Part shown: one piece after another, positions 1,026 to 53,874 of the stretch | How positions within the stretch are numbered: the first letter of the stretch is position 1 | Layout of the letters: the number at the start of each line of letters is the position of its first letter | Source: Mobula birostris | Lineage: Eukaryota | Direction of reading: 5' to 3' | DNA: 64,000 nt | Assembly (NCBI RefSeq): GCF_030028105.1 | Contig: NC_092393.1 | Coordinates: 9,614,012 to 9,678,011 of the forward strand | Position numbers and translations under genes: made by a program | Notes under the pieces: model-generated | Seen by the model: the letters and a program-made list of their open reading frames with translations, nothing else | The model's database searches: none | What the model was told of the DNA's origin: nothing

Positions 1026-1811
1026 CTAGACACAGATCTCAATAGGTGTGGTGACCAGAATCCTGGTGTTGTTGCTCTCCCTTGATGCCCTCTCATAGCT
1101 GCTGTTAGATGAGAGGGAGCTGGACGTTGTCACAGACGTGAAACGCGAGGATGGAGTTTCCATGGAGATGCCATTCTTTGCAATGCTGCACACGGGAGAC
1201 AGACTCTGTTGCTTCATCCTGGCCACCAGGTCTTCCTCCGAGGAAGAGCTCCCATCAGCAATGCTGTTACTGCAATCTGTGTCTAGCATCCACCGATAAC
1301 TCAGGTACCTGAATATCTCCTTGACTGAGCACCTTCGCTCCGGTTCGATAGGCAGAAGTTTCCGGAACATGCGGAGAGCATCGTCGGTGAACCTCCTCCA
1401 CTGTGACGGCACATTAGACCCTCTGCGTTTTTGCCATCTCACAAATTCATCGTAGAATGAGTCTGAGAGGAGGGCTTTCTCCCAGGGGAAGTTCCCCGTG
1501 AGCATGCAGAAGAGTAGCACCCCGAAAGCCCAGACATCAATGCTGTACTCCACGGAGAAGCCCTCATGCTTGGAGGCATCGCAGAGCTCCGGAGCAGTGT
1601 AAGGGATGGTACCACTCACCCGCTTGACAGGAGTACCAGCCCGACGGGTCATTCCAAAATCTGACAGTTTGACCTTGCGGCACTCCTTGTCAAAGATGAG
1701 GATGTTCTCGGGCTTGATGTCACGGTGTACCAGCTTCCTACTGTGCAGATAGTCCAGAGCTAAAGCAACTTGGTGCACACAGCGTTTGGCAATTTGTTCA
1801 GGGAGACCAAC
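1026..1811 (-). CDS. bsk146: Kinase terminal coding exon (VGLPEQ...TPIEICV*)
   Basis: Acceptor ctctcaaAG|GTT at 1813-1812. Encodes 261 codons plus TAG, covering the catalytic loop to the C-lobe and a Ser-rich tail. Confidence 0.95.
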
Positions 1812-13800: not shown

Positions 13801-16800
13801 AAATTGAATGGGGTGGTACAGCGAGAGGGTGTCAGGATACTGGGACTGTTATTTCTCTCTCTTTTGAACAATGTGTGGGCTCAAGAAATGAGCACAAAAT
13901 CCACGCCACTGAGGGAGCATCAAAGGAGGTGTTCTAACAGTCTGTCATCTCAGGTGGAGGTAATCCATGGCCCAGTTCCTTCCCGCTCTGCTGGTTCACA
14001 CCCACCTCTCAACTCATCAGCATGGCCTGATCATTCTCATTCTGTTTGAGAGAATGAATTTTGCTGCTGCATTTATTGATCAAACACTTCTTTAGTTGCA
14101 CAGAGTTGCGAGGTTGTGCTGAGGTGCGAAAGTTATTTCCCATATCAGGCTGAAAAGCACTCCCTGTAGACATTCTACACAGTGTTGAAACACAATGGAC
14201 AGGCTGAGCCACAGAAACAAATGCTCACATACAATCTCACAACACGCACACATACTCCTGTAGTCTGCTCCTCTGTATTAATAGTCCCATTGTCAAGCTC
14301 TGATGTAACTCTCAAATAAATTCCTAAGAAACGCTCAGGATTTAGGGTCACATCTCCACCCAAGGTGTGGCCTCTCAACGTTCTAAATCTGGAACACTTG
14401 GGCTGTGTCAAAACATGCCAGCAGCCGATCTTAAACAGGTCGGTGTTGTTACAGCAAGGGATGAAACTGGTGCTGTCTCACCCAGGACAAAGTCAATGCA
14501 CAACCCTCAAAATAAAGGGGAATAGACAGAATGAGCAGAGCACTCCTGTGGCCATTCCCACCAATAATAAGTACATTCTTTTGGATACGGTTGATGGGGA
14601 CGACCTACCAGGAACAAGTTGCAGTGGTTGCGTCTCTGGCACTGAGACTGGACCCTCAGCTCAGAAGGGAAGGAGGGAAAAGAGGAGAGCAGTAGTGATA
14701 GGGGATTCGATAGTTAGGGGGACAGATAGGAGGTTCTGTGGAAGAGATTGGGATTTCCGGATGGTCTGTTGCCTCCCTGGTGCCAGGTCCATGATATCTC
14801 GGATCGAGTTCTCAGTATTTACAAGAGGGAGGGTGAGCAGCCGGATGTCGTGGTCCATGTAGGGACCAATGACGTGGGTAGGAAGAGTGAGGAGGTCCTG
14901 AAAGGTGGATTTAGGGAGTTAGGTGCCAAGTTAAAGGACAGGATCTCCAGGATAGCAATCTCAGGATTGTTACCAGTGCCATGTACAGGCGGGTTTAGAA
15001 ATAGTAAGATAGTGCAGATCAACACGTGGCTGAAGACATGGTGCAGGAGGGAGGGTTTCAGATTTATTGATAATTGGACAGTTTTCCAGGGAAGGTGGGG
15101 CCTGTTCCGGTGGGACGGTCTACATCTGAACTGAAGGGGGACAAATATTCTTGCAGGTAGGTTTGCTAGAGAGGCTCGGGTGGATTTAAACTAGATACAA
15201 GCGGGGGAGGGGAACCAGAATGTAGGAACAGATGTAGGGAAGAAGGAAGAAAAAGAAAATAGTAAAGTTGTTTGCACCGTTAGAGATAAACAGAGAGAAA
15301 GAGGTGGAAAATTTCTTAAATGCATTTATTTTAATGCTAGGAGCATTATAAGAAAGATGGATGAGCTTAAAAGCATGGATTGATACCTGGAAGTATGATA
15401 TGGTAGCTATTAGTGAAACATGGTTACAGGAGGGGTGTAATTGGCAACTGAATATTCCTGGATTTAATTGCTTCAGGTGTGATAGAACCGGAGGGAGAAG
15501 AGGGGAAGGTGTTGCATTGCTTGTCAGAGAAAATATTACAGCGTGCTCAGGCAGGATAGATTAGAGGGCTCATCTAGGGAGGCTATTTGGGTGGAATTGA
15601 GGAATGGGAAAAGTGTAGTAGCACTAATAAGGGTGTATTATAGACCACCAAATAGGGAGCGAGAATTGGAGGAGCAAATTTGTAAGGAGATAGCAGATAT
15701 TTGTAGTAAACACAAGATTGTGATTGTGGGAGATTTTAATTTTCCACACATAGACTGGGAAGCCCATACTGTAAAAGGGCTGGATGGTTTGGAGTTTGTA
15801 AAATGTGTGCAGGATAGTTTTTTGCAGCAATACATAGAGGTACCAACTAGAGAAGGGGCAGTGTTGGATCTCCTGTTAGGGAATGAGATAGGAATGAGGT
15901 ATGTGTTGGGGAGCACTTCGGGTCCAGTGATCACAATTACATTAGTTTCAATATAATTATGGAGAAGGATAGGTCTGGACCCAGGGTTGAGATTTTTAAT
16001 TGGAGAAAGGCTAACTTTGAGGAGATGCGAAAGGATTTAGAAGGAGTGGATTGGGACAAATTGTTTTATGGGAAGAATGTAATAGAGAAATGATGGTCAT
16101 TTAAAGGTGAAATTTTGAGAGTACAGAATCTTTATGTTCCTCTTAGGTTTAAAGTTTGAGAGAGCCATGGTTTTCAAGGGATATTGGAAACTTGGTTCAG
16201 AAAAAGAGAGATATCTACAATAAATATAGGCAGCATGGAGTAAGTGAGGTGCTCGAGGAATGTAAAGAGTGTAAAAAGAACCTTAAGAAAGAAATTAGAA
16301 AAGCTAAAAGAAGATATGAGGTTGCTTTGGCAAATAACGTGAAAATAAACCCCAAGGGTTTCTACCGTTATACCAATAGGAAAAGACTAGTGAGGGATAA
16401 AATTGGTCCCTTAGAGAATCAGAGTGGACAGCTATGTGTGGAGCCAAAAGAGATGGGGCAGATTCTGAACAATTTCTTTTCTTTGGTATTCACTAAGGAG
16501 AAGGATATTGAATTGTGTAGGATAAGGGAAACAGGTAGGGAAGTTATGGAAACTATGATGATTAAAAAAGAGGAAGTACTGGAGATTTTAAGGAATATAA
16601 AACTGGACAAGTCTCCGGGTCCTGACAGGATATTCCCCAGGACCTTGAGGGAAGTTAGTGTGGAAATAGCAGGGGCTCTGACAGAAATATTTCAAAAGTC
16701 ATTAGAAACGGGGATGGTGCCGGAGGATTGGCGTATTGCTCATGTTGTTCCATTGTTTAAAAAGGATTCTAAGAGTAAACCAAGCAATTATCGACCTGTG

Positions 16801-19800
16801 AGTTTGACGTCAGTGGTGGGTAAATTGATGGAAGGTGTTCTTAGAGATGGTATATATAATTATCTGGATAGACAGGGTCTGATTAGGAACAGTCAACTTG
16901 GATTTGTGCGTGGAAGGTCATGTTTGACAAATCTTATTGAATTTTTTGAAGAGGTTACTGGGAAAGTTGACGAGGGTAAAGCGGTGGATGTTGTCTATAT
17001 GGACTTCAGTAAGGCCTTTGACAAGGTTCCACACGGAAGGTTGGTTAGGAAGGTTCAATCATTAGGTATTAGGTATTAGATATTGAAGTAGTAAAATGGA
17101 TTCAGCAATGGCTGGATGGGAGACGCCAGAGAGTGGTGGTGGATAACTGTTTGTCAGATTGGAGGCCGGTGACTAGTGGTGTGCCTCAGGGATCTGTACT
17201 GGGTCCAATGTTGTTTGTCATATACACTAATGATCGGATGATGGGGTGGTAAATTGGATTAGTAAGTATGCAGATGATACTAAGATAGGTGGAGTTGTGG
17301 ATAATGAAGTAGGTATTCAAAGCTTGCACAGTGATTTAGGCCCGTTAGAAGAGTGGGCTGAAAGATGGCAGATGGAGTTTAATGCTGATAAACATGAGGT
17401 ACTACATTTTGGTAGGACTAATCAAAATAGGACATACATGGTAAATGGTAGGGCATTGAAGAATGCTGTAAAACAGAGGGATCTAGGAATAATGGTGCAT
17501 ATGGATATCTCATGTGGATAGGGTGGTGAAGAAAGCTTTTGGTATGCAGACCTTTATAAATCAGAGCATTGAGTATAGGAGTTGAGATGTAATGTTGAAA
17601 TTGTACAAGGCATTGGTGAGGCCAAATTTGGAGTATTGTGTACAGTTTTGGTCACCGAATTATAGGAAAGATGTCAACAAAATAGAGAAAGTACAGAGAA
17701 GATTTACTAGCATGCTACCTGGGTTTCATCACCTAAGTTACAGAGAAAGGTTGAATAAGTTGGGTCTTTATTCTTTGGAACGTAGAAGGTTGAGGGGGTA
17801 CTTGATAGAGGTGTTTAAAATTATGAGGGGGATAGATAGAGTTGACGTGGATAGGCTTTTTCCATTGAGAGTGGGGGAGATTTAAACAAGAGGACATGAG
17901 TTGAGAGTTAAAGGGCAAAAGTTTAGGGGTAACATGAGGGGGAACTTCTCTACTCAGAGAGTGGTAGCTGTGTGGAACGAGCAGAAGTGGTTGAGGCAGG
18001 TACGATGTTGTCATTTAAAGTTAAAATGGACAGCTATATGGACAGGAAAGGAATGGAGGGTTATGGGCTGAGTACAGGTCAGTGGGACTAGGTGAGAGTA
18101 AGAGTTCGGCACGGACTAGAAGGGCCGAGATGGCCTGTTTCCGTGCTGTAATTGATATATGGTTATATGGTTATAAACAGCTCAACCACTAAAGGCAGAA
18201 GATGCTCAAAGATCACCAAAGGTGACATCACCAAACTGGGACATGTTTTACCTTTGTATTAAGGACAGGGTGAAGGGCTTGCTTTTTATACACCAATGCA
18301 GCAAAAAATACAGTATCCCCAGTGGTTTACAGCTGATCACAAGTTTTTTAAAGCACCGTAATACTCGACTCAAGAATAGCTTCAGTCCCACAGTTATCAG
18401 ACTATTGGACGGACACATCTGAAATGGTAAAAGATGAACTCTTGATTTCTCCAATCAACCTCATCATGTACCTTGCATCTTACTGTTTGTAAGTACTGCA
18501 GTTTCTCTGTAACTGTAACACTAGATTCTGCATTCTGTTTAGTTTTTCACTGCCTCAGTATACTAAGAGTGGCAGGGTCTACTGTGTGTAGATAGTACAT
18601 AAACAAACTTTTGACATAAACCAACAGTAAGGCCAATAATTTGTACACAGCAAGGTCCACAAAGTCTTCTAATAATCCATTTCAGGGAGTATTTTTGAAG
18701 GATAAATATTGATCCTATCAGTATAGTGATATGAAATACAGGTTTTCCCCGCTATCCGAAAGTACAGCGTTCCTATGTAACCTTTCGTCAGCCGAAATGG
18801 CGTATAGCAAAGAAGTAATTACCATTAACTTATATGGGAAAAATTTTTGAGCATTCCCAGACCCAAAAAATAACCTACCAAATCATATCAAATAACACAT
18901 AAAACCTAAAATAACACTAACATATAGTAAAAGCAGAAATGATATGATAAATACACAACCTACATAAAGTAGAAATAATGTATGTACAGTGTAGTTTCAC
19001 TTAACCAGAATTGGGAAGACAGCGAGCACACTGGAAGGTTCACGCATTTTTCTATCGTACAGTTCTTTGTAAGCACTCAAATCATCCTGCAAACCTGCTC
19101 TAAGCCTACATGCCCTTTCAAAATTAAAGTCATACTTCTCTGCAACCATTACAGCACTGTCAATCGTAGTGAAAATTTCACACAGTTCAAAGCTATGGTG
19201 GCCTGGGACACGCTGCCTCTATAACGGCACACTGAACACTATTTTCGCTTTTCGCCAATCTCGCTGCTGGGGGTGCACGCTGCCTCTTTTCTGGCTTGCT
19301 GCAAAACAAACACTTTTTTCGTAAAAGCAAAAATCCTCTTCGGATTTCTTTTGGTTAGCGAAAACAGGTACTAATGTAGGTCTTTCGTAAAAGCAAAGTG
19401 GCGTAAAGTGATCTTTCAAAAAGCGGGGGATACCTGTAGATGTCTTCACATGAGAGGCTTTATTTAACACCTCACACAAAATTTGACAGCTCTGCTACCA
19501 TGACATGCTCAGTATAGCATAGGTCTCTGTATTAGGGAACATCAGTTGGGACCTGGCAAACTTTCAACAAACTTCCAGTCAAGATGGCGCCTGCATAAAA
19601 TGCTCCTTTGGTCAACATCTGGATAGATCATAAAACTATATATTTCACTTCTTTTATGTCTTTTACATTTGTTTTTAATTTTGGATGTGATACTGGAACT
19701 TTTGGAGCCTGTGCTTAGCTGTTTGGAGATCATTTGGGTGTTCCAGTGCTCTGCAGTCTCCAAGAGGATTCCAGAAGACAGAGGCAGTATGTGTGAACCT

Positions 19801-21336
19801 CATGATGAACTGCAGGAAGGGGCATGAGCCCATGTTTGATTCCGTTGCACCGATTAAAGCTTTCATCGTGCACGAATTAAAGTGATGAGGGAGATTGAAA
19901 CATTGAGGCGAATGTAGAAGGTGAGTGCTAGCTGCCTGCTTTTTGATCACTCTGGTACCAGAGAGGGGAGAGTCTGCCGCTTTGCCTGGAGAATGTTACC
20001 CAGGTTCTCTGCTTTTTGGATATGGACTTGAATTATAGACTTTTTTTCAGTCTTATAGTTTTTATATTCTGCATTTTTCACCCAGTCTTTCTCATTTGTT
20101 TTCTGAGGGGGGGCAGATTTGGGAGTTGACGTACATGTTCCATTTTGTTTGTTTTTTTCGTATGGGAGGAGGGATATGCCTGTGCCATTTTTGTTTGAGT
20201 TTTGTGTGGGGAGGGAAGATTTGGGGGTTGATGATCGTGCTGTCTTTCTTTTTTTTCTTGGTTTCATGGCTACCCAGAGAAGAAGAATTTCAGAGTTGTA
20301 TACTTTGATAATAAATGAACCTTTGAACCTTTAATGACAAAGACCTTGAAGGCACTGAAATTTGTTCCTGACCTTGTAATGAGAGCCTGTGCCACAACAG
20401 GTTCACCTGAACCGTTACCAAACCTAACACTAGAGCTGGAATCAGGAGCAGGTGTCCCACCATCCAGTCATAGAGGCTGTAGCTATACCTACACATTATG
20501 TCATGGGTTTGTTGTAATGCAGCACAGAAACAGGCCCTTCAGCTTAACTCGCCTGTACTGACATGGCTTTTCATATGAAAAGCATCTGATGGCTCTGCAC
20601 CTGTATTCACTGGATTTCAGAAGAATGAGGGATGACATACTTGGAACCTACTGAATGATGAAAGGCCTTGATTGAGTGGAGGATGTTTCCTATGGTGGGA
20701 GAATCTAAAACCAGAGGACACAGCCTCAGAATAGAAGGACATCATTTTAGAAGATGATGAAGAACTTTCTTAGCTAGAGAGTGATAATTCTGTGGAATTC
20801 ATTGCCACAGGCAGCTGTGCAGGCCAAGTCTTTATGTATATTTAAGGCAGAGGTTGATAGATATGGGGAAAAGGCAGGAGACTGGGGCTGAGGGGGAAAT
20901 GGATCAGCCATGATGAAATAGCAGTGCAACCTCGATGGGCCAATGGCCTAATTCTGCTCCTATATCTTACGGTGTCATAAATGAAGGTGAGCAGATTAAG
21001 GTTAGAGCATGGAGCATTCAAAATGATTGGTGATTTGTGGAGAAGATACCAGAGATTTTGGAGGATTGTGATTCAGCTCTGATGCTAGAGCTTGGTGCAT
21101 AGAAGTAGTTGCAGTATGAGTACAAGCTTCTGTTTACAGTGAAGAAGCAGCTACAATTATTACATACCTCTAACCTTATGGATGACCAGGTCCACCTTGC
21201 CATAGGTTCCTTTTCCCAGCTCTCTAATCACCTCATAGTACTTATTCACCTCCAGCCGTTCCAGGTTCTGAGCTGTGAGCAACTGGAGCTCCTCCAGAAC
21301 ATCGCTCGTTCCTCGGGTCATCAGTGAAGAATTCAT
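1026..21336 (-). CDS. bsk146: SBK1-family serine/threonine kinase (bsk146 / SBK1-like); spliced CDS join(21336..21168, 3942..3740, 1811..1026), 385 aa
   Basis: Three exons join in frame across GT-AG introns (phase 1, then phase 0). All kinase motifs are present: [36 protein letters not shown], and the C-terminal EICV typical of the SBK1 family. The segments [24 protein letters not shown] and [23 protein letters not shown] match my recollection of fish bsk146 better than SBK1 proper. Confidence 0.92.
1930..2275 (-). mobile_element. HE1/V-SINE-like SINE, degenerate
   Basis: Typical reverse-strand body (tttggaatgt...aaactggaatacccagaggaaacccatgca) with a CR1-like tail. A similar copy lies at ~58535-58800. 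Confidence 0.6.
2455..2887 (+). mobile_element. CR1 LINE 3' fragment
   Basis: Remnant of the [11 protein letters not shown] motif, a CR1 3' UTR and a tcttatggtct tail. Confidence 0.75.
2888..3202 (+). mobile_element. tRNA-derived SINE with a 12-bp flanking direct repeat
   Basis: A box TGGCCAAGTGG, B box GTTCGAGCC, core gtgtccttgagcaaggcacttaacc and an A-rich tail. Flanked by ATCTTATGGTCT at 2876-2887 and 3203-3214. Confidence 0.8.
3740..3942 (-). CDS. bsk146: Kinase internal coding exon, 203 nt (DTKMALK...DIIPPQ)
   Basis: Acceptor ttttttccttgctccAG|AT and donor CAG|GTACAC. The 203-nt length keeps frame with both neighbouring exons. Confidence 0.95.
4375..4618 (+). mobile_element. Penelope-like 3' pyrimidine-rich tail fragment
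   Basis: Resembles the reverse complement of 24830-25070 and ends in a decayed hammerhead start (cagttccaacaaagggttt). Confidence 0.55.
4640..4845 (-). mobile_element. CR1 3' end, same family as 14510-18175
   Basis: Near-identical reverse complement of ~17960-18165. Confidence 0.85.
4860..6720 (+). mobile_element. Old, heavily decayed CR1 ORF2 and 3' UTR, interrupted by a MITE
   Basis: Remnants of LDFQKAFDK, YINDL, SKFASD and [11 protein letters not shown]. Confidence 0.75.
5096..5648. mobile_element. Tc1/mariner (Tigger-like) MITE containing a nested CR1 3' end (~5326-5550, minus)
   Basis: Terminal inverted repeats CAGGTTGAAACTCT...AGAGTTTCAACTTG followed by TA; the left TA is degenerate. 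Confidence 0.55.
7980..8222 (-). mobile_element. CR1 RT fragment
   Basis: Minus strand reads [31 protein letters not shown]. Confidence 0.75.
8230..8750 (+). mobile_element. CR1 3' fragment interrupted by a 157-bp antisense poly(A) insertion (8315-8471)
   Basis: [16 protein letters not shown] remnant and tail ttttctatgtttcta. Same family as 37290-39430. Confidence 0.85.
10870..11290 (+). mobile_element. Decayed Ty3/Gypsy reverse-transcriptase relic
   Basis: Frames read [14 protein letters not shown] (compare RLCGDYKVTVN..DQYPLP), then [15 protein letters not shown] (compare LPFG..FQ..MD.LLQG). Split by a hammerhead-bearing unit at ~11030-11126. Confidence 0.5.
14510..18175 (+). mobile_element. 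Near full-length CR1 LINE (ORF1 SGNH esterase; ORF2 APE endonuclease plus RT), frameshifted, antisense to the kinase in an intron
   Basis: Esterase motifs [23 protein letters not shown]; endonuclease motifs AISETWL, YYRPP, VGDFNFP; RT motifs [32 protein letters not shown]; tail (TATATGGT)n. Confidence 0.95.
18739..19436. mobile_element. Tc1/mariner (pogo/Tigger-like) MITE, 698 bp
   Basis: TA|CAGGTTTTCCCCGCTATCCGAAAG ... CTTTCAAAAAGCGGGGGATACCTG|TA, with subterminal TTCGTAAAAGC repeats and no ORF. Confidence 0.85.
19572..20332 (+). mobile_element. Non-coding dispersed retroposon (~760 bp) with an AAGATGGCG head and a (TTGAACCT)n tail
   Basis: A reverse-complement copy lies at ~44830-45372, with related 3' ends at ~9290-9545, 11430-11615, 43755-44650, 51430-51690, 53210-53600 and 59580-59770. 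Confidence 0.7.
20575..20975 (+). mobile_element. CR1 3' fragment
   Basis: LYSL.FRRMR remnant and CR1 3' UTR ending aattctgctcctatatcttac. Confidence 0.75.
21168..21336 (-). CDS. bsk146: Kinase first coding exon ([56 protein letters not shown]); absent from the ORF track
   Basis: Start context GCGGCC-ATG at 21336, Gly-rich loop GKGTYG, donor AGAG|GTATGT at 21167. An upstream acceptor ttgttacAG places the exon start at 21355. Confidence 0.93.
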
Positions 21337-22444
21337 GGCCGCAGAAGGGCAAAAACTGTAACAAGATCAGCTCTGGCACTACTCTCAGATCCTTTGCCCT
21401 ATAGGGAGATGAAACAGTAAGTTCTCATCATTATCTCAAGGTTAAATTCAGAAACTTCATTTAAGCCAGAACAGAAGATCTAATCAACAACCCAAGCAGT
21501 GCTGTTCTCACATCATGGTGCTTCTCCCACATCAGACTTCTCAGAAGATGTGCTATCACTCATGCTTTATCATTATATTGTTCTGGTACATTTTATACAG
21601 AATTGAAGTACGTTGGTAAAACACAGCAGCACACAAAGTGAATGCCAAATAATGTTTGATCAGCCAATCATGGTGATATCTGCCTTCAATGTATGGTCCA
21701 TCTCATAAAGTACTTCCATGGTCTGTTAGTCAAATAATCCCTGTCCCTTAGTCCCATTGATACATGAACAAACAATTCTGGAAGAACCTAGACAGTCAAA
21801 CAGCATCTGTTGGAAAAGAAACCACTTTGCATTTCAGGTCAGAAACCTGAATCAAAACGTTGACCAGTTTCTTTTGGCTGAGTGTTTTCAATGTTTTCTG
21901 TTTTGGTTGCAGATTCCAACATTTACCATTTTATTTGTTTTCCATCACAGCTTACATGTCAGGAATATCCGATCATTAACGACAGGCAAGTCTAATGGCA
22001 TCTGCCCCATAGCACCCCGATAATCAATCACAGTAAAATCTGGCCAATATGTCAAAATATTGTCAAACACAATGGCATCTGTCCAGTGCATCTGGCCCAT
22101 CTGCCCTGAGTATTTGTTCCACTGATCCACAATTCTCTGCTAATCAAAGCTATAGTTTAAAAGAAGAAGCCTTCCATGACAGCTTAGGCAGGATTGAAAT
22201 GCTATTGGTTCTTCAGTGTGCTTGAAGTAGTTTCTTGCAAATGAAGTGTTGTAATCAAGGCCACCCTGCCACAAACACACACAGCAAATTCTTACTAACA
22301 GGGATGAGATACGAAACAGATAATGTGTGTTAGTAATGTTGGCTGTAGGAGAAATAGGTTTAGAATACTTAGAAATAACTTTATAGCTCCTCTACAAGAT
22401 AGGACTTGGGATTTTGTTTTACATTCACCTGACAGACATATATT

Positions 22445-22910
22445 TAAAATATCAGAATTGGATTTATTATCACCGAAAATTGACATGGAATTTGTTTTTT
22501 GTGGCAGCAGTACAGTGCAAGACAGTAAAAATTACTAAGATACATTAAAAATAAAATACATAAGTTAAGGAATAGTGAGGTAGTCTTCATGGGTTCGTGG
22601 ACCATTCAGAAAGTTGATGGCGGAGGAGAAGAAGCAATTCCTAAAATGTTGAGTGTGTGTTATCTGGCTCCTGTAACTTCTGATAGTATCAATAAGAAGA
22701 CATGTCCTGGATTGTGAGGATATTTAATGATGGATGCTGCCTTCTTGAGGCTTTTGAAGACGTCCTCAATGGTGGTGAATATTGTGCTCAGATTGAAGCT
22801 GGCTGAGTCTACAACTTTCTGCAGCCACTTGTGATTTAATTCCAGACGGGCACGCAACCAGTCCGTGGTACATGGTACATCTGTACTAATTTGTAACTTA
22901 CCAAAGACTC
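22445..22910 (-). mobile_element. Rex1/Babar-like LINE 3' fragment
   Basis: LQKVVDSA..I...KAASIIKYPHNPGH motif on minus. Confidence 0.7.
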
Positions 22911-23964
22911 CACCAAATTTAAGACAGGGCCTTCCAAGTTTATTGTTCTGTAAAAATGCATTGCAATGACATGCAAAGTTTTGGTGCTCAAGTCCATGGG
23001 GAGTGACATGAACCTGTAAACTTTCTAAATGGAGGAATGTTGAGAGTGCTACCAACTGTCGGACATGATCTTCATAATGTAACTGGACCATAAACGACGG
23101 AATTTTCATTTGTATAGTGCCTTATACCATCCAAGGGAAGCTCAAATTAGCTTATGGAGACTGAAGCCTAATGATATGTCATCTGTAAATTCCATTCATC
23201 ACACACTGAGGCACAATGAATAGATAACACTATTTCTTTCAGGGAGCACATCATCATTGATAATTAGATAGACATATATGGACAGCATAGTCATCACTGC
23301 ACATGACTTTACATATCAGTTTACATATCAACACAGATCAAATTAATTGAAGCAAAAATTTTAAATGCTGAGCAGATCAGGCAGCATCTGTGGAGAGAGG
23401 TAATTAATATTCTGGGGTCACTTTGATCAAACTTTACCATTCAGTTATCACACAGAACAAAAGACTATATAGAATATGCCAAGCAGTAGAATGGTAGAGC
23501 ATTAATTCTAATCAATTCTATCATCTTCACACCTTTTAATTAGCCCAGAGATACATGGGTTTCAGAGGCAGGGTTTTACCTGCTTGATTTGTACTTCTAG
23601 GCACTGTACTTTACTGAGTAAAGCTCCATTTTACTTCATTCCCCCTTGTAACTGACCCAAATATCTCACTGAGTAACTGGATCTGATGTGAAAGGACGAC
23701 CCATTTGAGTTCAAAAGAGTTTTGCCGCTAATGAACTACATTAAGAATGAATTTATGATGCTGTGTAGACAAATCAAGCAATTAACACAGCACACATTTC
23801 CTCAAATGGTCAATAAAGGTGTTTAATGATAACACTGGCCGTGAGAATGTTCTCAGCTCTTTAGTGGGATCAATTCATTGGTTTAACATTTCATTGAAAC
23901 ATTCCTACAGAGCAACCTCAGCACTACAGTGGAGCCTGAGCCACGTGCTCAAACTCCAGAGTAG

Positions 23965-26050
23965 TGGAATTATCATATGTACGAAGGTATAGTGAAAAAC
24001 ACGTCTTCCATACTGTTTATACAAATTAAATCATTATGCTCAGACAGTACAAGGTAAACAATAATAATGCAGAATAAAGCCACGGACACAGAGAAAATGC
24101 AGTGCAGATAAACAAAAAAGTGAAAGACAATAATGAGGTAGCTTTTGAGATCAAGAGCCCATCTTATTGCAACAGGGAACCATTTAATAGTCTTCTAACA
24201 GCAAGGAAGAAGCTTTCCTTGAGCCCAGTGGTATGTGCTTTCAGACTTCTGTATCTTCTGCTTGATGGGAGAGAGGAAAAAGAGAGAATGTCCTGGGTGG
24301 GTAGGGTATTTGGTTATGCTGGCTGCTTTACTGAAGCAGTGGGAAGTGCAGACAGAGTCCATAAAGGGAAGGCTGGTTTCTGTAATGTGATGAACTGTGT
24401 CCACAATTCTCTGCAGTTTTTTGTGGTCACAGACAGAGCAGTTGCCATACCAAGCTGTAATCATTCTAAGTTGGCAAGGGTTTACAAGTTCATGCCAAAT
24501 TTCTTTAGCCTCCTGAAGGAGAGGAATTGATGACATTCTTGGCTATGGCATCAACATGCACCAACTGGAGCAGGTGGTGTTCACCCTTAGGAACTTGAAG
24601 CTCTCAACCTCAATATCGTTCCTGTAGACAGGAGCATGTGTACCACTCTTCTTCCTGAAATCAAGAACTATCTCTTTTATTATGTTGATAGAGGGAAATG
24701 TTAAACATAAGAAATTCTGAAGATGCTGGAAATACAAAGCAACCAACACAAAATACTGAAGGAATTCAGCAGGTCAGCCAGCATCTATGGAAATTAATAA
24801 ATAGTTGATGTTTCTGGCCGAGACACTTCCCCAGGACTGGAAAAGAAAGGGGAAGTTTGGGGTGGGGGAAGGAGGATAGTTAGGTGATAGGTGAAGCCAG
24901 GTGGAAGGAAATGTAAAGGGCTGTAGAGGAAGAAAGCTGATAGGAGAGGAAAGTGGGCCATTGAAGAATAGGAAGGAAGAAGGGATCCTTTGTGGGGGGG
25001 GGAGGATGGTAGGCAGGTGACAAGACTTAAGAGGCTGCAGTGGGGAATAGAAGAAGGGGGGAAGGAGGGAATTTCTTGACTGGAAGGAGAATTCAATACT
25101 AATGTCATCAGGTTGGAGGCTACCCAGACATAATATGAGGTGTTGCTCCTGCACTCTGAGGGTGGCCACATTGTGGCACAAATGGAGGCCATGGACCAAC
25201 ATGTCAGAACGGGAATGGGAATCAGAATTAAAATGTTTGGCCACTGGGAAGTTCTGCTTCTGGTGTATGGAGTGGTGGTACTTGCCAAAGTGGTCCCCCA
25301 ATTTATGATGGGTCTCACCACTGTAGAGGTGGCTGCATCGGGAGCATCGGACACAATAGACAACTCCAGCTGATGCATAGGGGAAAAAAGACAAGATAAC
25401 CTGGTGTCATGACAAGGGAAATATTGTCATGACAACATGTTACTAAGCTCCCTATTTCCTTCCTGTACTTGCAGTATCAGTAATTGAGATATGCCTTCTA
25501 TGGTGGTACAAACTTGTGGATGGAATTAGTGCAGAATGTGGCCATGCATTCATGTACAGGAAGTAGAATAACAGGCTGAGGATACAACTTTGTGATGCAC
25601 CAGTGTTCAGAATAATCTTGGTGGAGGTGTTGCTGCCTATCCTTACTGGCTGTGGTCTGTTGGTCAGAAAGTCAAGGACTCAGTTGCAAAGGCAGGCTCC
25701 CATGGTCCAGAGCTGGGCAATGAGTTTCTTTGGAATTATAGTATTGAAGACTGAGCTGTAGCCAATAGACAGATAGTCTGATGTAGTTGTTTTTACTGTC
25801 CAGTGATGAGTGTAGGGTCAGGGAGACTGCAGTTAACACCTGCTCTGAACAGATTCTGGAAGCTATTAATGATAGTAGATGTCAGAGCTATTGGGCAGTT
25901 GTTGTTAAGGCAAGTTATCTTGGTTTTTCTTGGATATAATGATGATACTGGTCTTCTTAAAGTAGATGGGAACCATAGACTGAATCGGGGAGAGGTTAAC
26001 AATGTCTGCAAATATCCCTGCAAGCTGATCTGCACAAGATCTAAGGACAC
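23965..26050 (-). mobile_element. Rex1/Babar-like LINE fragments interrupted by a Penelope insertion
   Basis: ITCLNNNCPIALTS, YSSVFNTII, KEIVLDFRK, ITAWYGNCS and KAASITKYPTHPGH motifs. Confidence 0.75.
24705..25378 (-). mobile_element. Penelope-like element 3' part (GIY-YIG endonuclease, tail and degenerate hammerhead unit)
   Basis: GVVYCVRCSRCSHLYSGET...PVAKHFNS...EQHLILCLGSLQP. Confidence 0.9.
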
Positions 26051-28787
26051 TTAATGGCTCAAAGCCATAACATTGAGTCCCAGTTCAACGCGGTGCTACA
26101 GAGAAGCAATATATTACCAAAAGGTTCCCCAAGTAGCTTGTTAGAAACTGGTCCACCCCTGTTCCATCAGCCAATGTACTAGGGACCCAGAGAGGTCAAT
26201 GCAACATTGAAATTGAACTCTATATCTGGAAAAGTCGAGACAGTAACGAGCTTGTTGCAGTTTCCTACCAGCTGTTGAGAGTTGCTGTCATGATGTCCTG
26301 GCTAATGTGTGTGCGCTGACTGCTCCCGTTCACTGAGGTGGTTTCAGGGAGCCCACGTTGCCCTTTCATCTGTTGGCGACACCTCCCTTGCCAGCTAACG
26401 CTCTCACTTAACTAGATGACGTTTCAATGCAAAGGCAGAGAGCACGTTCCTCGGACACTCTCCATCATGCTTGTTTACAAGCTCTGGTACTTGCAAGGAT
26501 GAAGGTTCGTAAGCATTCTTACACCCCCTGGAGGTGAAACTCTCCTGTGCACGCCTCTCCGCTCTCCACAAGCATAATAAACGGCGGCAGGCTGGATTTC
26601 AGTCAGGAAGGGACCTTGATTTGGCGCTGAGGGCATCAGGTGTATACTTGGATCATTTTAGTTTGAAGAGCTCACAATCGCTCAAACATGACGGAATGTA
26701 AAATGCGAGCCAGATTCGGCCCATCTACTAACGAGGGAAGGCTGGAATCATCGTCTCTGCTCCCTTCCCCAGCGTCTCGCTCCCTCCCCCCTTCGTTCCC
26801 TCACCTGCATCAATCCACATCCCTCTTATTTTGACTGCTTTCTTCTATCCCTTTCTCTTTCTTCCCGTTTTCCACTTTCGCTTCTCTCTTCTTCACTCCT
26901 TGCTTTGAGTGAATCCTTTTCCCCCTATCCGGCTTTCTCTCCGTCTCCATTCATCGCCAATACTGCGTGATCAGCCTGCATGATGCGATTCACGTTGTAA
27001 TATCATACAGAGTTTCTTTAACACCGCTTTTTGTAAATAAAGCGTCGCCCGACAGAGACACAGAATATTAATTCTATTGACTATCCTGACTCCGCAGTTC
27101 TTATGACAACGATTTCAATACACGGGTCATAAAGGATTTTGCTCTCCATGGGTCATTTAACCATGCACTAGGAAATTTTTAAATAGGGGTTGCTGACTTT
27201 GAAGGACAAAGCTACTTTGTAAACCGGTGCAATCTAAACTGCGTCATTTAATCAAAATATTATTTAAGCCAACGGTGAAACGTTAAGGTGGATTTCCAGC
27301 ATCTGCTGATTTTCTCTTGTTTATGTGTACAATACATTCGTTTTAAGACATTTTATTTCTGAAACGTGCTTCATATGCATAGGCGACACAACGACACAAC
27401 AGGTTATTCGGCCCATTGCACCCCTGATAGCTTTCTGAAAGCCTATACAAATTCGTACTAAAATTGCAAAAACATTTACCCCTTTACTTCTTTTGAAAGT
27501 TACTAAATCTTCTTCCGCAGTCTTTGTGGCGGTGCGTTTCGGATACAACTCTGCTTTAAGAAAATACATCTCCGCCAAATATTCCAACAAGAATTCTTCA
27601 AGATACAAGTATATCGGCGATTACTTATTAAAATGAAGGTTGTTCAATATTCACTAATTTGGCAATGAATATTTAAGCAGCAAAGAACTGCCTGGGACAC
27701 AAACAATGACTGATCAACCAGGAAAATACAGCAATGGAGATGCTAGTCAAGGCTGGGCGCGGAGCGCGGTCACATAGATGATGGTATCAGGCAAGTGTAA
27801 TAGAAGGGCGGTGGGGTTCAGTGCAACCAACATCGGAGACCTTTCCAGACAGATCAGGGCAACTGTTAGGGGCGCTTAGCTATTATTGCACTGTAGCTAA
27901 AGCACTGAAGGAGAGACTCCCGTATTTGTCAGCCGTAACCCTCGTTACCGAGTAAACACACACCAAGTGCACCATCTGTCTAAACAGCTCTGAGCAGCAG
28001 CCTTTTATCTAAAGCAAAACCCACCTCACATCCGATTCTGACAGATCAGATCTGACAGATAAGGTAGATTTGTTTAAAGGTAGATTATTATTGTTGACAG
28101 CAAAATAAACCCCTTAAAATTCCAGCGAAAATGTGTCTTTCGAACCCATTGAGATCGCTTATTTCTCTTTATTTACGGAATAAACTCATCGCCTCTCCCA
28201 TCAAACGCTAAATAAAAATATTTTAACAAAAATCTCCCTAATTTTTTGTCGTTTATTCAAAGACTGCTTGAAGCGAGCTGTTTTCACGGCGCAGCAGACA
28301 AGGGATGTTATTTATCATCAGGATCCAGACACAACCTTCAGCTCGGATACAGTAAAAGAGCTTCGCTGCTGCAGATGTGCCAGCAGTTACCCTGCGTCCT
28401 TTCATTCCGCATTCCAGCCAATGCATTGACAGAGTTTACTGTCGACCGTGCATCCTGATCTTGTATATAGGAAAAGTCCAAATATTTGGATGCGTGCGTG
28501 CGTGTATTCTTGCGATTATAATCATAAATAGCAACTCTTCACTGACGTTAAATGCAGTTAAATTTTACACATAGGAGGAACAAAACCTGTAATTAATATA
28601 CACAGTTTTAGTTTAAAATCACGTACGTTTCCCATTGCAAGGTTAATCCTTGCATCGTTACTGTTATGGTTTGTAGCAAATTAGCTTAACAAATAAACAC
28701 TTTCTCGTGGCTGCCAGTGTCTTCTCCCGTTGGTTAATACTCTTACACGATTTAATTCTAAAACGGTGTAGTTGTGAAGCTCCTCAC

Positions 28788-29045
28788 CTTCCTGCAGAGA
28801 TCCCTGGTCACAGTGCAGCCCAGATGCAGGACAAGGATGCAATAGGCTGCGCCTGCCACAGCCTCTGATGGTAGCATTGACTTTCTTCTTTGTTTGGGAG
28901 TGCCCTCTGTTTCCTGCCTTTGGCTGCCCTTTGTAATGGTGTTATTCTTTTCTTTATCTCTCTCTTGTCCTGATGCAATTGCTGATCAGCTGAAATATTC
29001 AGGGTCCCATTCCTCCGCTTGTTATAACTCGCTACTCGCACTTGT
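28788..29045 (-). other. bsk146: Probable non-coding first exon (5' UTR) of the kinase gene
   Basis: Donor AAG|GTGAGG at 28787, directly downstream of a TATA-like box and CCAAT array in a CpG-rich, repeat-poor zone. The start site is estimated from the TATA position. Confidence 0.65.
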
Positions 29046-29064
29046 GCTCTCCTGTGTACCAGCT

Positions 29065-29255
29065 GAAGGGTATTTAAAGGGACCCAGAGCAGTGGCTGAC
29101 AGGCAATCCCGCCCAATACCAGCAGTGACCAATCAGAAGCGAGACACCGTGCCCGTCACCAATCACAATCGTGACATTATAACTATCGCCAATGGAAATC
29201 AAATTGTCAAAATACTTCCACCAATCACAGTCTAACTGGGATGAATCAATTGGCA
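29065..29255 (-). promoter_or_regulatory. Core/proximal promoter: TTTAAATA box, GC box, CCAAT array
   Basis: TATTTAAA at 29071-29078 (TTTAAATA on minus), CCCGCCC at 29108-29114, CCAAT at 29113, 29129, 29159, 29189 and 29221, and ATTGG at 29249. Confidence 0.75.
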
Positions 29256-31239
29256 GCAGAACTGACAGAGCGATAAGAATGCAGCACAATAAGCAGGGAG
29301 TATGCCGACGCTAAATGGGGTTCTTCACCTTCCGCCTCACGAGCTGGCCTGAAAAATTAGTGCAAAACCAAAATACTGCGGAAGTTGGAAAACCGAAACA
29401 ATAGGAGAAAACGCTGGAAATACCCAGCGGGTCAGGCAGCACTCGCGAGGAAACAAAGTATACATTTCACATTCGACGACCATTTCACCAGGGTCACCGA
29501 CCAGCATCCAGGCTGCTTAAAGCTGGAAACATGTTCGTGCTTCACGTCACGGCACGTAGACAAGGGCAAGTACACAGTGTGAAAAATCTATCAACCGCCA
29601 GATTGCATTATGGAATTGTGATTGAAACGTGCTCCCGAGTAAACTCGAACACTGTTTATTTGCTGTTTGCTCCAAAGCAGAACAGTGGATTCCCCGAGGC
29701 TAGCACACAATAGATGCAAATGCCACAGGCTGCAAGAAGAGTCGTATTATTTGAATGAACCGTCTGGTTACTTTATAGCCTCGTAATCGCTCCCTGGTAT
29801 CTGTTATTTTATTTATTATGCAAACAACATAACGCCATTTTAGTCGTTATTACACCTAGTACAGTCAGTATCACTATTATGTATTGTATTATATCTGGTC
29901 AGCATCTTTTTTTATAACTCATTCAGGCAGCCATGTTTGGACCCATTGCTTGCATCGTATCAAAACAGCAAAGGGAAATTCTGACAACCACACAATTGCA
30001 CTGCATGTGTGTGCAAAAATGCGGACCACTAATTTGCCAAGACTGAAGTTCCTTGCTTCTAAATACTCTGCAGAAAGATTCACTGCCACTAACTAGAATC
30101 AAAAGGAACAATAAAAGATAACATTCCTGTAACAATAGTTGCAGGATTATCCTACAATTAAAGAAAAGATTCCTTTGTTTGCTCCAACAGATTGTTAGCC
30201 TGAAGAGTGTATGAACTTGATTGTAGCCTGCTGAACAATTGTAGAGTGCTGAATGGAGTATTTCCATTTTATGCAATTCGATGACATTTAGGATTGCTCA
30301 GACTGAGTTGGATAGTTTGTTTTAAGCTTGTGATGTTATTTGTAAAGCATGATAGGAGAACTGCTACGGGAACTGTTAATTCCCGATTAATAGTTTGAAA
30401 TCTTACATCTACACCTACTTCCTATCACATTTTTTCCTTGGAAAAAAATGATCATAGGAACATAATAATGAGGAACCTGAGTAGGTTATTGAGCCCTTCA
30501 AGCCTGTTCTACCATGGATGGTCACAGCTAAGATGCCATTTTCCTGCATTATTCCTTAATATTCAGAAATCCAACTATCTTTGAATGATGTCATTATCCG
30601 AGTTACCATGATCTTCTGCAGTAGAGATTTTCAAAAATTCCCCACTATCAGCATGGATGATTTCTCCTCATCTCAGTGCTATCCCTATTTTGAGTCTGTG
30701 ACCCCAGTTTTTTTGTTGGATCTTCTCTGCATCTAACCTGTTCAGCCCTGTAAGAATTTTGTAGGCTTCAGTGAGGGCTCTTCTCATTCTCTCTCCGAGG
30801 ACTCAAGCTCAGTCTCTTTATATATGGTAAATCTGCCAACCCAACACTCAGTAGAGGGAATCTTCCTGTATGATAATTATATATATATTTTTATAGGTAA
30901 GGGCACAAATTACACACATTCTCCATGTTTGGACTCACCAGGGCTCCATATACTTGCAGTTAAACCTGTACACCTGCAGTTACACCTGTATTCAAATTCT
31001 CTTGCAGTAAGATTCTCTGCATATGTGGACAATCTGGCACATTCTCTCCATGACCTACTGAATAAGCAGTGGAACACCTTTTCAAACAAGCTCATTCTTT
31101 CCTACCAAATGCAATAAGCATATGCAACAGTTCATCTCTGTGCAACAGGAGAACATACATCATAGTACAGTAGAATTTGCTTTATTATTTTGTACATTAT
31201 TATTGTACATTATTGCACATTAAATCTAGTCAGCTCCAT

Positions 31240-33451: not shown

Positions 33452-34735
33452 AAGACCATAAGATAATAGGAGCAGGAGTAGGCTATTCAGCCCATCAAGT
33501 CTGCTCCATCATTCAGTCATGGGCTGATCCAATGCTTCCATTCATCTCCACTCCCCCGCCTTCTCCCCATACCCTTTGATGCTCTGGCTAATCAAGAACC
33601 TATCTACCTTTGCCTTAAATAGACCAAATGACTTGGCCTCCACAGCCTCTCGTGGCAACGAATTCCACAGATTTACCACCGACTAAAGTAATTTCTCGAC
33701 AACTCTGTTCTAAATGGATGTCCTTCAATCCTGAAGTTGTGCCCGCTTGTCCTAGACTCCTCTACAATGGGGAACAACTTTGCCATATCTAATCTGTTCA
33801 GGCCTTTCAACATTCGAAATGTTTCTAAGAAATCCTCCCTCATTCTCCTGAACTCCAGGGAATACAGCCCAAGAGCTGCCAGACACTCCTCATACAGTAA
33901 CTTATTCATTCCTGAAATTATTCTTGTGAATCTTCTCTCAACCCTCTCCAATGTCTTTGTTCCCACTCTCTGTTTTCTGCTGATCAGCCAATGCTCCACC
34001 CATGCTAGTAGCTTCCCTGTAATTCCATGGGCTCTTATCTTGCTAAGCAGCCTTATGTGCGGCACCTTGTCAAAAGCCTTCTGAAAATTCAAGTACGCCA
34101 CATCTTTTAAGAGACTCCTGGATAGGTACATGGATCTTAGAAAAATAGAGGGCTATGGGTAACCCTAGGTAATTTTTAAGGTAAGGATATGTTTGGCACA
34201 GCTTTGTGGGGCCAAGGGTTTGTATTGTGCTGTAGGTTTTCTATGTTTCTACTACATCTCCTTTGTCTACCCTGCTTGTAATTTCCTCAGAACATTGCGG
34301 TAGGTGTGTCAGGCAGAATTATCCTTTCAGGAAACCATGCTGACTTTGGCCTATCATGTCATGTCACTCCAGGTACTCCGTAATTTCATCCCTAAAAATC
34401 GATTCCAACAACTTCCCAACTGTCAGGCTAACAGGTCTATAGTTTCCTTTCTGCTGACTCCCACCCTTCTTAAGTAGCTGAGTAATATTTGCAATTTTCC
34501 ATTCATCTGGTACAATGCCAGAATCTATCGATTCTTTAAAGGTTATTTTCAATGCCTCCGTAATCTTACCAGCTACTTCCTTCAGAACCCCAAGGTGCAT
34601 TCCACCAGGTCCAGGAGATTTATCCACCCTCAGACCATGAAGCTTCCTCAGCACCTTCTCAGTCACAATTTTCACTGCACATACTTCACTTCCCTGACAC
34701 TTCTGAATGTCCGGTATACTGCAGATAACTTCCAC
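33452..34735 (-). mobile_element. CR1 ORF2 fragment with an internal deletion and a nested plus-strand CR1 tail (~34103-34250)
   Basis: [25 protein letters not shown] and LERVERRFTR motifs. Confidence 0.85.
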
Positions 34736-34799
34736 TGCACCTGTGTACAATGTTCCTTCAGTCGAATCTTCTGGATAGATCATGAAACCATATAACATA

Positions 34800-35376
34800 T
34801 TTATGCTGCTATAAAGAAGGTAAGAGAGCAGCTATATTTCATTAGGAGTTAGAGTAGATTTGGTTTGTTAACTTAAACACTTGAAAACTTCTACAGATGT
34901 ACCATGGAGAGCATTCTGATTGGCTACATCACCGTCTAGTTGGGGGGGGGGACTACTGCACAAGATTGATGTAAGTTGCAGAAATATGTAAGATTAGTGA
35001 GCTCCATCATGTAGTATCCAAGACATCTTCAAGGAGCAGTGTCTTGGGAAGGCACCTGTCATTAAGGATCCCCATCGCCCAGGCCATGCCCTCTCCTCAT
35101 TGTTACCATCAGAAAGGAGGTACAGAAGCCTGAAGGCACACACTTGATGATTCAGCAGCAGCTTTGTCCCCTCTGCCATCCAATTTCTAAATGGACATTG
35201 AATCCGTGAACACTACCTCACTATTTTTTATTTGTTTTTGCGCTACTTATTTTAACTTAATTATTTAATAGACTTATGTACTTACTGTAATTCAATTTTT
35301 TTCTCTATATTTATCATGTATTGCCAAATTTCACAACATATACTGGTGATAATAAACCTGATTCTGATGCTGATTC
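34800..35376 (+). mobile_element. Rex1-like LINE 3' fragment
   Basis: NFYRCTMESIL..YIT and IKDPHRPGHALS motifs; tail aataaacctgattctgat. Confidence 0.75.
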
Positions 35377-39432: not shown

Positions 39433-40037
39433 TTCTTACTACACAATAAAAGATATAAACTAGCCTTTTTTCCTAGTTGATACCTCAACATATTGATTTA
39501 AAAGCTATCTCATATACATTCCATGAATATGTCTTCATCACCAATATAAGTTTTTGAGTTGTCCAATCTATATGCAAGTTAAAGTCTCTAGTAATTATTG
39601 ATATTCCCATTGTTACAAGCCTCTAATTTCCTGATTAACAGTGTGCCCAATATCACAATCACTATTTGGTAGCCCAGAAATAATTCCCTGCAATGCTTTT
39701 TATCAGTTCAATGCAAACTGATTCTAATTCTACATCAAGATCCACTGAGCCAAGATCATTTCTCAACACAACTGTAATCTAATCCCTTACTAATAGCGCC
39801 ACAACCCTCTAACTTTTTGCCTTTGTTTACTAACTACTGAATATCCTTCAACATTTAACCAGTCCTGGTCACCCTCCAGAAAAGCTCCCATAATGGCAAT
39901 GAGATCATACCTGTTTAGTTCTGTTAGTGGCATCTGCCTGCTCTGAATACTGATCAGAGATGTAGTACTTCTAATTTTGCCATTCCAATATTTTTCCATA
40001 TATGGCTTATATGTTTCTGCTATTTGTTTTGCCTCCT

Positions 40038-41330
40038 CCTGGTACTATCACATCTGAAATCCTGTCTGCCCACTACCCTGGACCCCCATCAATTTGCCTG
40101 TGCACCAACACGTCAACAGAAGATGCCATCTCCACGGCACTTCACTCTGCCCTGCCCACCTGGACAGCCCCAACTCTTACGTCAGAATGCTGTTCATCGA
40201 CTTTAGTTCGGCATTCAATACTGTGATCCCCTCCAAGCTGATCGCCAAACTTTGCCAGCTTGGTATCAGCTCATCCCTCTGCAATTGGACCTTGGACTTT
40301 CTGACAAACAGACTCCAATCAGTTAAGTTAGACAACGTCTCCTCCTCCACTCTCATCCTGAACACCGGCGTGCCTCAAGGCTGTGTGCTGAGCTCTCTTT
40401 GGTACTCCCTTTTCACCTATGACTGCGTTCATGTACATGGTTCTAACTCCATAATCAAGTTCGCAGACGACACCACGGTGGCTGGCCTGATCAGAGGGAG
40501 TGACGAGACAGCTTACAGGGAGGAGATCCAGCACTTGGCCATGTGGTATGCCGACAACAACCTGGCCCTTAACACCCAGAAGGCCAAGGAGATCATTGCG
40601 GACTTCAGGCATACTAGGAGCCACACTCATGTCCCCATCTACATCAACGGAGTTGTAGTGGAGCGTGTATCAAATTCCTTGGTGTCCACATTTCCAAGGA
40701 TCTCACCTGGTCCCTGAACTCCTCCATCCTGATCAAAAAGGCGCAACAGCACCTTTATTTCCTGCGGAGCATCAAGAAAGCTCACCTCTGTCTCAGGATA
40801 CTGACAGACTTTTACTGCTGTACCATTGAGAGCATACTCACCAACTGCATCTCAGTGTGGTATGGCAATTGTCCCTTATCGGACCACAAAGCACACCAGC
40901 GTGTGGGGAAAACTGCCCAGCGGATTAGCAGCACCCAATTGCCCACCATTGAGAACATCTACCATAAACGCTGCCTGGGGAGGGCAAAAGCATTATCAAG
41001 GATGCATCTCACCCTAACCATGGACTTTTTACTCTCCTCCCATCTGGTAGGTGCTACAGGAGCCTCCGCTCCTGCACCAGCAGGCACAGGAAGAGCTTCT
41101 TCCCTGAGGCTGTGACGCTGCTGAATCTCACGTCACAGCGCTAAGCAGTATTGCACCCATATTGTACTGTCTCAGTACTTTTATATTTGTGTGCTGTAGC
41201 ATTTACTTTGTATTCACAGTTATTTTGTAAATAACACTATTCTTTGCATTTCTGGTTAGATGCTAGCTACATTTCATTGGCTTTATATCTGTACTCGGCA
41301 CAATGATAATAAAGTTGAATCTAATCTAAT
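40038..41330 (+). mobile_element. 5'-truncated Rex1/Babar-like LINE
   Basis: [28 protein letters not shown] and KFADDT motifs, then AATAAA and an (AATCT)n tail. Inserted in an older antisense CR1 relic. Confidence 0.9.
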
Positions 41331-53870: not shown

Positions 53871-53874
53871 TTCT

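What the first reader, a model, noticed from the sequence alone, without database searches (positions are those of the whole stretch)
21242..29010. ATF4-like uORF switch in the predicted 5' leader of the bsk146 kinase
Seen in sequence: the predicted exon 1 contains exactly two AUGs. uORF1 (29010-28999) is only 3 codons, ATG GGA CCC TGA, in a strong context (GGA-ATG-G). After a 121-nt spacer, uORF2 starts at 28877 and runs 30 codons to the donor at 28788. If spliced to the acceptor at 21355 it passes the kinase AUG out of frame (19 nt of exon 2 precede the AUG) and stops at TAA 21244-21242, giving 67 aa. Established: a 3-codon reinitiation uORF followed by an inhibitory uORF overlapping the main CDS is the ATF4/ATF5 delayed-reinitiation design that responds to eIF2-alpha phosphorylation. 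Inference: this kinase may be translationally induced by the integrated stress response, which I do not know to be described. Caveat: the uORF2 AUG context is weak (TCA-ATG-C), so leaky scanning may dominate.
Basis: partly seen in the sequence, partly recalled or inferred. Interest (0 to 1): 0.7.

Follow-up and report, generated by a model that had tools for sequence, protein, structure and literature searches.

The report
Repressive uORFs in shark kinase leader
The mRNA leader of a shark or ray kinase gene (bsk146, SBK1-like) holds two short upstream reading frames that likely just turn down kinase production; transcript-type contigs show a different splice from the one first proposed, and a stress-triggered ATF4-like switch remains an untested possibility.

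Summary
Spliced contigs from 4 of 5 organisms laid join 28788 to 21398; the fifth joins it to an extra exon at 26975; none shown uses 21355. uORF2 is therefore 51 codons in the +1 frame and its stop overlaps the kinase start as AUGA (4 nt), not 67 codons running 95 nt into the gene. 'Exactly two AUGs' holds only for this lineage: 4 of 4 other organisms have a third AUG at 28989 with a drifting frame. uORF1 and the uORF2 AUG are unchanged in them, which is what a ~90% conserved leader gives by chance (P about 0.43). A bony-fish copy likely has no overlap. An ATF4-like layout arises in 3.5% of random two-AUG leaders. One oddity remains: the 90 nt after the second AUG are unusually conserved and predicted to fold. 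Best reading: ordinary repressive multi-uORF leader (0.6); ATF4-like stress switch 0.15. No stress data exist here.

The parts
29071..29078 (-). TATA-like box; GC box at 29114 and five ATTGG (inverted CCAAT) boxes at 29117-29225 upstream; start site inferred near 29045-29060
   Evidence: motif scan; contig 5' ends
28788..29045 (-). exon 1 (untranslated for the kinase); 5' end approximate
   Evidence: contigs of 5 of 5 runs laid end their match at the donor after 28788
28999..29010 (-). uORF1, 3 codons plus stop, strong context; last sense codon is proline
   Evidence: start and stop show no listed change in 4 of 4 other organisms, one codon-2 change in X14
28987..28989 (-). CUG here, AUG in 4 of 4 other organisms (third uAUG, 9 nt after the uORF1 stop, weak context)
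   Evidence: row 28989; modelled ORF lengths 11, 61, 19, 86 codons
28788..28877 (-). uORF2, exon-1 part (30 codons), weak AUG context; conserved block with predicted hairpin 28871-28791
26805..26975 (-). alternative 171-nt exon; if included uORF2 ends inside it (46 codons) and four more uAUGs appear
   Evidence: X7 contig joins exon 1 to it; donor predicted, not seen spliced
21399..21400 (-). acceptor AG actually used (first exon base 21398)
   Evidence: X1, X4, X8, X14
21333..21398 (-). uORF2, exon-2 part (21 codons plus stop); the stop 21335-21333 overlaps the kinase AUG 21336-21334
21168..21336 (-). kinase coding part of exon 2
   Evidence: start matches homologues; 87% to zebrafish BSK146 over 47 aa
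3740..3942 (-). kinase exon 3
1026..1811 (-). kinase exon 4 to stop; whole protein 385 aa, 95% identical to P0002

Best explanation
This is the spliced 5' leader of the cartilaginous-fish bsk146 (SBK1-like) kinase gene, holding a 3-codon uORF and a 51-codon uORF whose stop overlaps the kinase start, and these likely act as ordinary, constant dampers of kinase synthesis rather than as a stress switch. Shown: the exon junction, the frames, the AUG contexts. Inferred: most scanning ribosomes start at the strong uORF1; some resume scanning over the weakly folded spacer; a part start at the weak second AUG, perhaps helped by a predicted hairpin beginning 7-13 nt behind it, and are lost at the AUGA stop because they have no distance in which to pick up initiator tRNA; the rest leak to the kinase AUG, whose context is good. 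Termination 165 nt upstream of the next junction would also expose the mRNA to nonsense-mediated decay (rule recalled, untested).
For: Junction 28788-21398 in 4 of 5 organisms. Layout drifts: third uAUG in 4 of 4 relatives with modelled ORFs of 11-86 codons in three frames, an alternative exon in X7, all three frames closed before the AUG in bony-fish locus L005 at its best acceptor. ATF4-like layout by chance in 3.5% of two-AUG and 6.5% of three-AUG leaders; AUGA is 45% of chance overlaps here. Overlapping uORFs are about 14% of uAUGs across eukaryotes (PMC7889888, passages). In human cells 10 mRNAs were called resistant while 8% of other expressed mRNAs had translated uORFs, 'a poor predictor' (PMC4383229, passages). 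No peptide constraint: 3 of 3 variable sites at codon positions 1-2, no homologue of the peptide.
Against: The 90 nt of uORF2 in exon 1 are more conserved than the spacer (3 of 90 against 16 of 121 variable sites, Fisher p 0.014; 0 of 8 listed indel rows) and than X8's silent coding sites (2 of 90 against at least 6 per 56 codons, p about 0.003), so something there is under selection. uORF1 and both AUGs persist in 5 of 5 organisms. The spacing fits delayed reinitiation. The leader has few AUGs (2 against a shuffle mean of 6.5), so those kept may matter. No translation data exist for any step.
Confidence: 0.6

Rival explanations
1. The uORFs are largely incidental. uORF1 allows reinitiation, the weak second AUG is mostly skipped, and the conserved block reflects splicing signals, promoter-proximal DNA elements or RNA structure.
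For: Weak context at 28877. P that the 9 key letters stay unchanged at this leader's 9% variability is about 0.43. The conserved block starts about 30 nt upstream of the AUG (no listed substitution 28851-28906), so it is not co-terminal with uORF2.
Against: A strong-context uAUG usually represses; overlapping uORFs are under stronger purifying selection than others (PMC7889888 passage), so one kept in 5 of 5 organisms is likely not inert.
Confidence: 0.2
2. ATF4-like delayed reinitiation: after uORF1, ribosomes normally restart at uORF2 (recognition helped by a downstream hairpin) and end at AUGA; when eIF2-alpha is phosphorylated they pass it and start at the kinase AUG 152 nt on.
For: 3-codon uORF1 in strong context with A/U-rich bases after its stop, 121-nt weakly folded spacer (-13.6 kcal/mol), uORF2 still covering the start, no indel listed in uORF2 in any run. 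Predicted hairpin behind the weak AUG (z -1.9 on hand-picked bounds); a downstream stem-loop can raise use of a poor AUG (PMC5972666 passage). A third AUG 9 nt after uORF1 would likely be passed by reinitiating subunits.
Against: Overlap only 4 nt and in the +1 frame; human ATF4 uORF2 is 60 codons in the -1 frame (PMC11058473 Introduction). Weak uORF2 context. uORF1 ends in a proline codon, which in yeast GCN4 marks the poorly reinitiating uORFs (PMC5972666 passage; yeast only). Whole-uORF2 folding is not unusual (z -0.63), no compensatory change seen. Likely absent in L005. Human SBK1 was not resistant to arsenite (TE fold 0.17, Z -0.39, 24 control reads; PMC4383229 supplement row), though it is probably the paralogue (recalled, not tested).
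Confidence: 0.15
3. Stop-start coupling: ribosomes ending uORF2 at AUGA restart on the kinase AUG, as in caliciviruses and influenza B.
For: AUGA overlap is the viral arrangement (PMC10275272 passage); a hairpin across the junction ends 6 nt before the AUG.
Against: No UGGGA core within 40-90 nt of the stop (nearest UGGG 98 nt away, followed by C; definition from PMC5972666). AUGA follows automatically from the A after the kinase AUG and is 45% of chance overlaps. X8 weakens the junction hairpin.
Confidence: 0.05

Closest known systems
ATF4 / ATF5 two-uORF leaders (delayed reinitiation)
   Same: 3-codon first uORF, spacer of about 100 nt, longer second uORF out of frame that covers the main start (PMC5972666 passage; PMC11058473 Introduction).
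   Different: Overlap 4 nt in the +1 frame instead of a deep -1 overlap; weak second AUG; third uAUG in relatives; alternative exon; no sign of conservation in bony fish; induction untested.
Ordinary vertebrate leaders with a non-overlapping and an overlapping uORF
   Same: Same parts; overlapping uORFs are about 14% of uAUGs (PMC7889888); no peptide constraint.
   Different: The 90 nt after the second AUG are more conserved than silent coding sites in the organisms seen.
TURBS termination-reinitiation (caliciviruses, influenza B)
   Same: AUGA stop-start overlap (PMC10275272).
   Different: No UGGGA motif at the required distance; cellular mRNA with a short upstream ORF.
Zebrafish BSK146 / SBK1-like kinases
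   Same: 73% identity over exon 4, 87% over 47 aa of exon 2; same start.
   Different: A second own-genome gene (L003) is only 49% like BSK146 in exon 2 and is probably the SBK1 proper (inferred); no tetrapod name among the 120 of 701 hits listed.

Membership tests
ATF4/ATF5-type delayed reinitiation leader | very short 5' uORF in a context that captures scanning ribosomes, inside the transcript | tested here: met
   3 codons, purine -3, G +4; 4 of 5 contigs extend upstream of it
ATF4/ATF5-type delayed reinitiation leader | second, longer uORF overlapping the main ORF out of frame | tested here: met
   51 codons, but only an AUGA overlap in the +1 frame; lost if the 26975 exon is included
ATF4/ATF5-type delayed reinitiation leader | uORF2 efficiently recognised and inhibitory without stress | tested here: inconclusive
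   weak context; predicted hairpin might compensate; no translation data
ATF4/ATF5-type delayed reinitiation leader | uORF pair conserved over long evolutionary distance | tested here: inconclusive
   kept in 5 of 5 close organisms, chance about 0.43; extra uAUG in 4 of 4; likely no overlap in 1 of 1 bony-fish locus, acceptor predicted only
ATF4/ATF5-type delayed reinitiation leader | main ORF induced by eIF2-alpha phosphorylation, needing uORF1 | not testable with these tools
   needs reporters or ribosome profiling
TURBS termination-reinitiation | stop and start overlapping or adjacent | tested here: met
   AUGA at 21336-21333
TURBS termination-reinitiation | UGGGA core 40-90 nt upstream of the stop | tested here: not met
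   only UGGGA lies 285 nt upstream
Conserved-peptide uORF | peptide conserved, silent changes in excess | tested here: not met
   3 of 3 variable sites in the exon-1 part change the residue; no homologue among proteins of 23-74 aa (weak, short uORFs are rarely called)
BSK146 / SBK1-like kinases (the main gene) | best similarity to BSK146-type proteins, same start and length | tested here: met

The most novel reading that the evidence does not exclude
Cartilaginous fishes put the neural kinase BSK146 under integrated-stress-response control with a compact ATF4-like switch: a strong 3-codon uORF, and a hairpin-assisted weak second AUG whose frame is held free of indels so that it ends exactly on the kinase start (AUGA).
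Probability: 0.15. Interest if true: 0.6.

Novelty: new member of a known kind. Interest (0 to 1): 0.2.

Why it matters
As an ordinary repressive leader it matters little: it corrects the gene model and adds one more uORF-dampened signalling gene. If it were stress-induced it would add to the few known delayed-reinitiation mRNAs, link a kinase needed for early neural development in zebrafish (PMC8421397 passage) to the stress response, and test whether a 4-nt AUGA overlap can do the job of ATF4's long overlap. I found no paper on uORFs of this gene: SBK1 + upstream open reading + kinase, 0 papers; bsk146, 7 papers, none on translation by title or abstract start of the 6 listed; SBK1 + integrated stress response, 1 unrelated paper by listing. 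Subscription papers are not covered.

Tried and rejected
The run search listed no holder on record as RNA; the 14 'RNA?' labels are guesses and X1 was flagged probably DNA; I treat the five laid contigs as transcript-derived because they skip a GT..AG intron. I laid 5 of 20 listed runs, one per organism. Contigs give no strand, start or level. Exon-1 DNA search in the own genome: 1 match, itself. Repeats near the leader: nothing relevant. uORF2 peptide search: no candidate. Folding of 28788-28906: z -0.71; no covariation. GSG1-family synteny: copies on C28 (6.6 Mb away) and C11 (48 Mb from L003), not decisive for orthology. Metagenome scan: 9 loci from 494 candidates; L005 is the BSK146 type, L006 a paralogue, the other 7 are distant kinase matches, not used; L005 showed no exon-1 similarity. 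Earlier findings of this scan: nothing in 3 look-ups. The original Vattem and Wek paper was not held. Coverage gap between exon 1 and contigs at about 29130-29700 in four runs: a hole proves nothing. Script slips: one search ended the alternative exon and began exon 3 one base off; one search corrects the first, and no counted uORF reaches exon 3.

Full report
Gene. The minus strand holds a four-exon kinase gene: coding exons 21336-21168, 3942-3740 and 1811-1026 give 385 aa, 95% identical to P0002. Exon 4 hits whale shark (95%), basking shark (93%) and zebrafish 'Brain specific kinase 146' (73%) among 701 hits, 120 listed. The AUG at 21336 is the start shared by homologues. Exon 2 is 87% like zebrafish BSK146 over 47 aa, while a second own-genome gene (L003) is 49%.

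Observation. uORF1 (29010-28999), the spacer of 121 nt, the weak AUG at 28877 and the donor after 28788 are as stated. A TATA-like box at 29078, a GC box and five inverted CCAAT boxes lie upstream, and contigs reach 29060 (X14), about 29041 (X8), 29021 (X1) and 29020 (X7), so uORF1 is within at least some transcripts; the AUG at 29177 lies upstream of the TATA-like box.

The splice differs. I laid 5 of the 20 runs listed, one per organism. X1 (0 differences from the window), X4 and X8 join 28788 to 21398; X14's loose end is exon 2 from the same place; X7 joins exon 1 to an exon starting at 26975. None shown uses 21355. These are assembled contigs labelled RNA by guess; they drop rare forms, and the joint table was cut. 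With 21398, uORF2 is 51 codons in the +1 frame and its stop (21335-21333) overlaps the kinase AUG.

Conservation. In 4 of 4 other organisms no change is listed at the uORF1 start or stop or at the second AUG. With 20 of 223 leader sites variable, the chance of that is about 0.43, so it says little. All four carry a third AUG at 28989 where the window has CUG; modelled from the listed differences it opens 11, 61, 19 or 86 codons in three frames, in X8 in frame with uORF2. Some differing letters were counted but not listed (X7 2, X14 3, X8 8), so these lengths are approximate; exon 2 was seen whole to the AUG only in X1, X4 and X8 (no gaps), for 30 letters in X14 and not in X7. Against my reading: the exon-1 part of uORF2 has 3 of 90 variable sites against 16 of 121 in the spacer (p 0.014) and 0 of the 8 indel rows, and X8 differs at 2 of 90 there against at least 6 silent changes in 56 codons (p about 0.003). 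The spacer is purine-rich and slippage-prone, and 3 to 7 independent indel events give P(0 in 90 nt) of 0.11 to 0.005. All three variable sites change the residue, and no protein matches the peptide, so the constraint is not on a peptide. A long hairpin is predicted from 7-13 nt behind the AUG; two variable sites fall in its loop, the third breaks a pair but suits an alternative local stem. Folding is not exceptional: z -0.71, -0.63 for all of uORF2, about -1.9 for each of two hand-picked hairpins.

Bony fish. One BSK146-type genomic locus, L005 (78%), has stops in all three frames between its best acceptor (1630) and the AUG, and no AUG there; two weaker acceptors would leave two frames open. 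So the overlap is likely, not certainly, absent there; n = 1.

Chance. With two AUGs placed at random in this leader, 3.5% of 39,500 trials give a first uORF of at most 5 codons and an overlapping uORF at least 50 nt on; 0.5% also have a strong first context; three AUGs give 6.5% and 0.9% of 38,544. AUGA ends 45% of the overlaps because an A follows the kinase AUG. Plain dinucleotide shuffles gave 10.9% of 20,000 but with 6.5 AUGs on average. Over thousands of uORF-bearing genes, tens to hundreds of such leaders are expected by chance (inference).

Mechanism. Most likely (0.6) the uORFs lower kinase output at all times: capture at uORF1, partial reinitiation, loss of a share at uORF2 ending on AUGA, leak to the kinase AUG, with possible nonsense-mediated decay since the stop lies 165 nt before the next junction (rule recalled). 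Rivals: incidental uORFs (0.2), ATF4-like delayed reinitiation (0.15), stop-start coupling (0.05; no UGGGA core within 40-90 nt). All translation steps are inferred.

Known systems. ATF4 has a 3-codon uORF1 and a 60-codon uORF2 overlapping in the -1 frame, well conserved (PMC11058473: Introduction whole and passages; PMC5972666: passages). In PMC4383229 (passages) 10 mRNAs were resistant while 8% of other expressed mRNAs had translated uORFs; its supplement row for human SBK1 shows no resistance on few reads, and that gene is probably the paralogue (recalled). PMC7889888 (passages) gives the 14% share of overlapping uORFs; PMC10275272 (passages) the viral AUGA cases; PMC8421397 (passages) the zebrafish knockdown. 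Searches found nothing on this leader; searches were seen as listings only. The leader resembles ATF4 in outline; membership cannot be claimed because the defining feature, induction, is untested and conservation is inconclusive.

Verdict. Observation partly confirmed, junction corrected; new member of a known kind; interest 0.2. The boldest open reading, a compact stress switch ending on AUGA, has probability 0.15.

Noticed in passing
window 26805-26975 (-): GC-rich stretch in intron 1 used as an exon after exon 1 in X7; a separate X4 contig (26690-26918) runs across its predicted donor. Inclusion would end uORF2 early and add four uAUGs, one ending at the AUGA.
   Followed up: partly
window about 29130-29700: Contigs from 4 of 4 runs cover this stretch upstream of the promoter boxes, separated from exon 1; with five CCAAT-type boxes between, this may be a divergent transcript. 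Strand unknown.
   Followed up: partly
window 28796-28788 with 21398-21340 (-): A predicted 15-17 bp stem forms only after splicing at 21398 and ends about 6 nt before the kinase AUG (z -1.97, hand-picked bounds); weakened in X8.
   Followed up: partly
L005:829-1128 (+): An exon resembling the cysteine-rich region of insulin/IGF receptors (likeness recalled) lies about 500 nt upstream of bsk146 exon 2 on the same strand in the bony-fish locus; its three own-genome matches are on other contigs. Possible nested gene.
   Followed up: partly
homologues P0001-P0120: Residue 2 is S (71), T (11) or N (8) in 90 proteins starting at the shared Met, compatible with an A after the AUG throughout; no tetrapod name among the 120 listed hits, so the gene may be lost in tetrapods.
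   Followed up: no
window 14300-17900, 33700-34800, 37300-39400, 40000-41100, 46100-48900, 56400-57900, 61000-62700: Broken LINE-type reverse transcriptase and other retroelement-like frames fill the introns and flanks (likeness from my own knowledge).
   Followed up: no
window 51680-52030 and 53618-54277: Long low-complexity, repeat-like open frames rich in His/Thr, probably tandem repeats.
   Followed up: no
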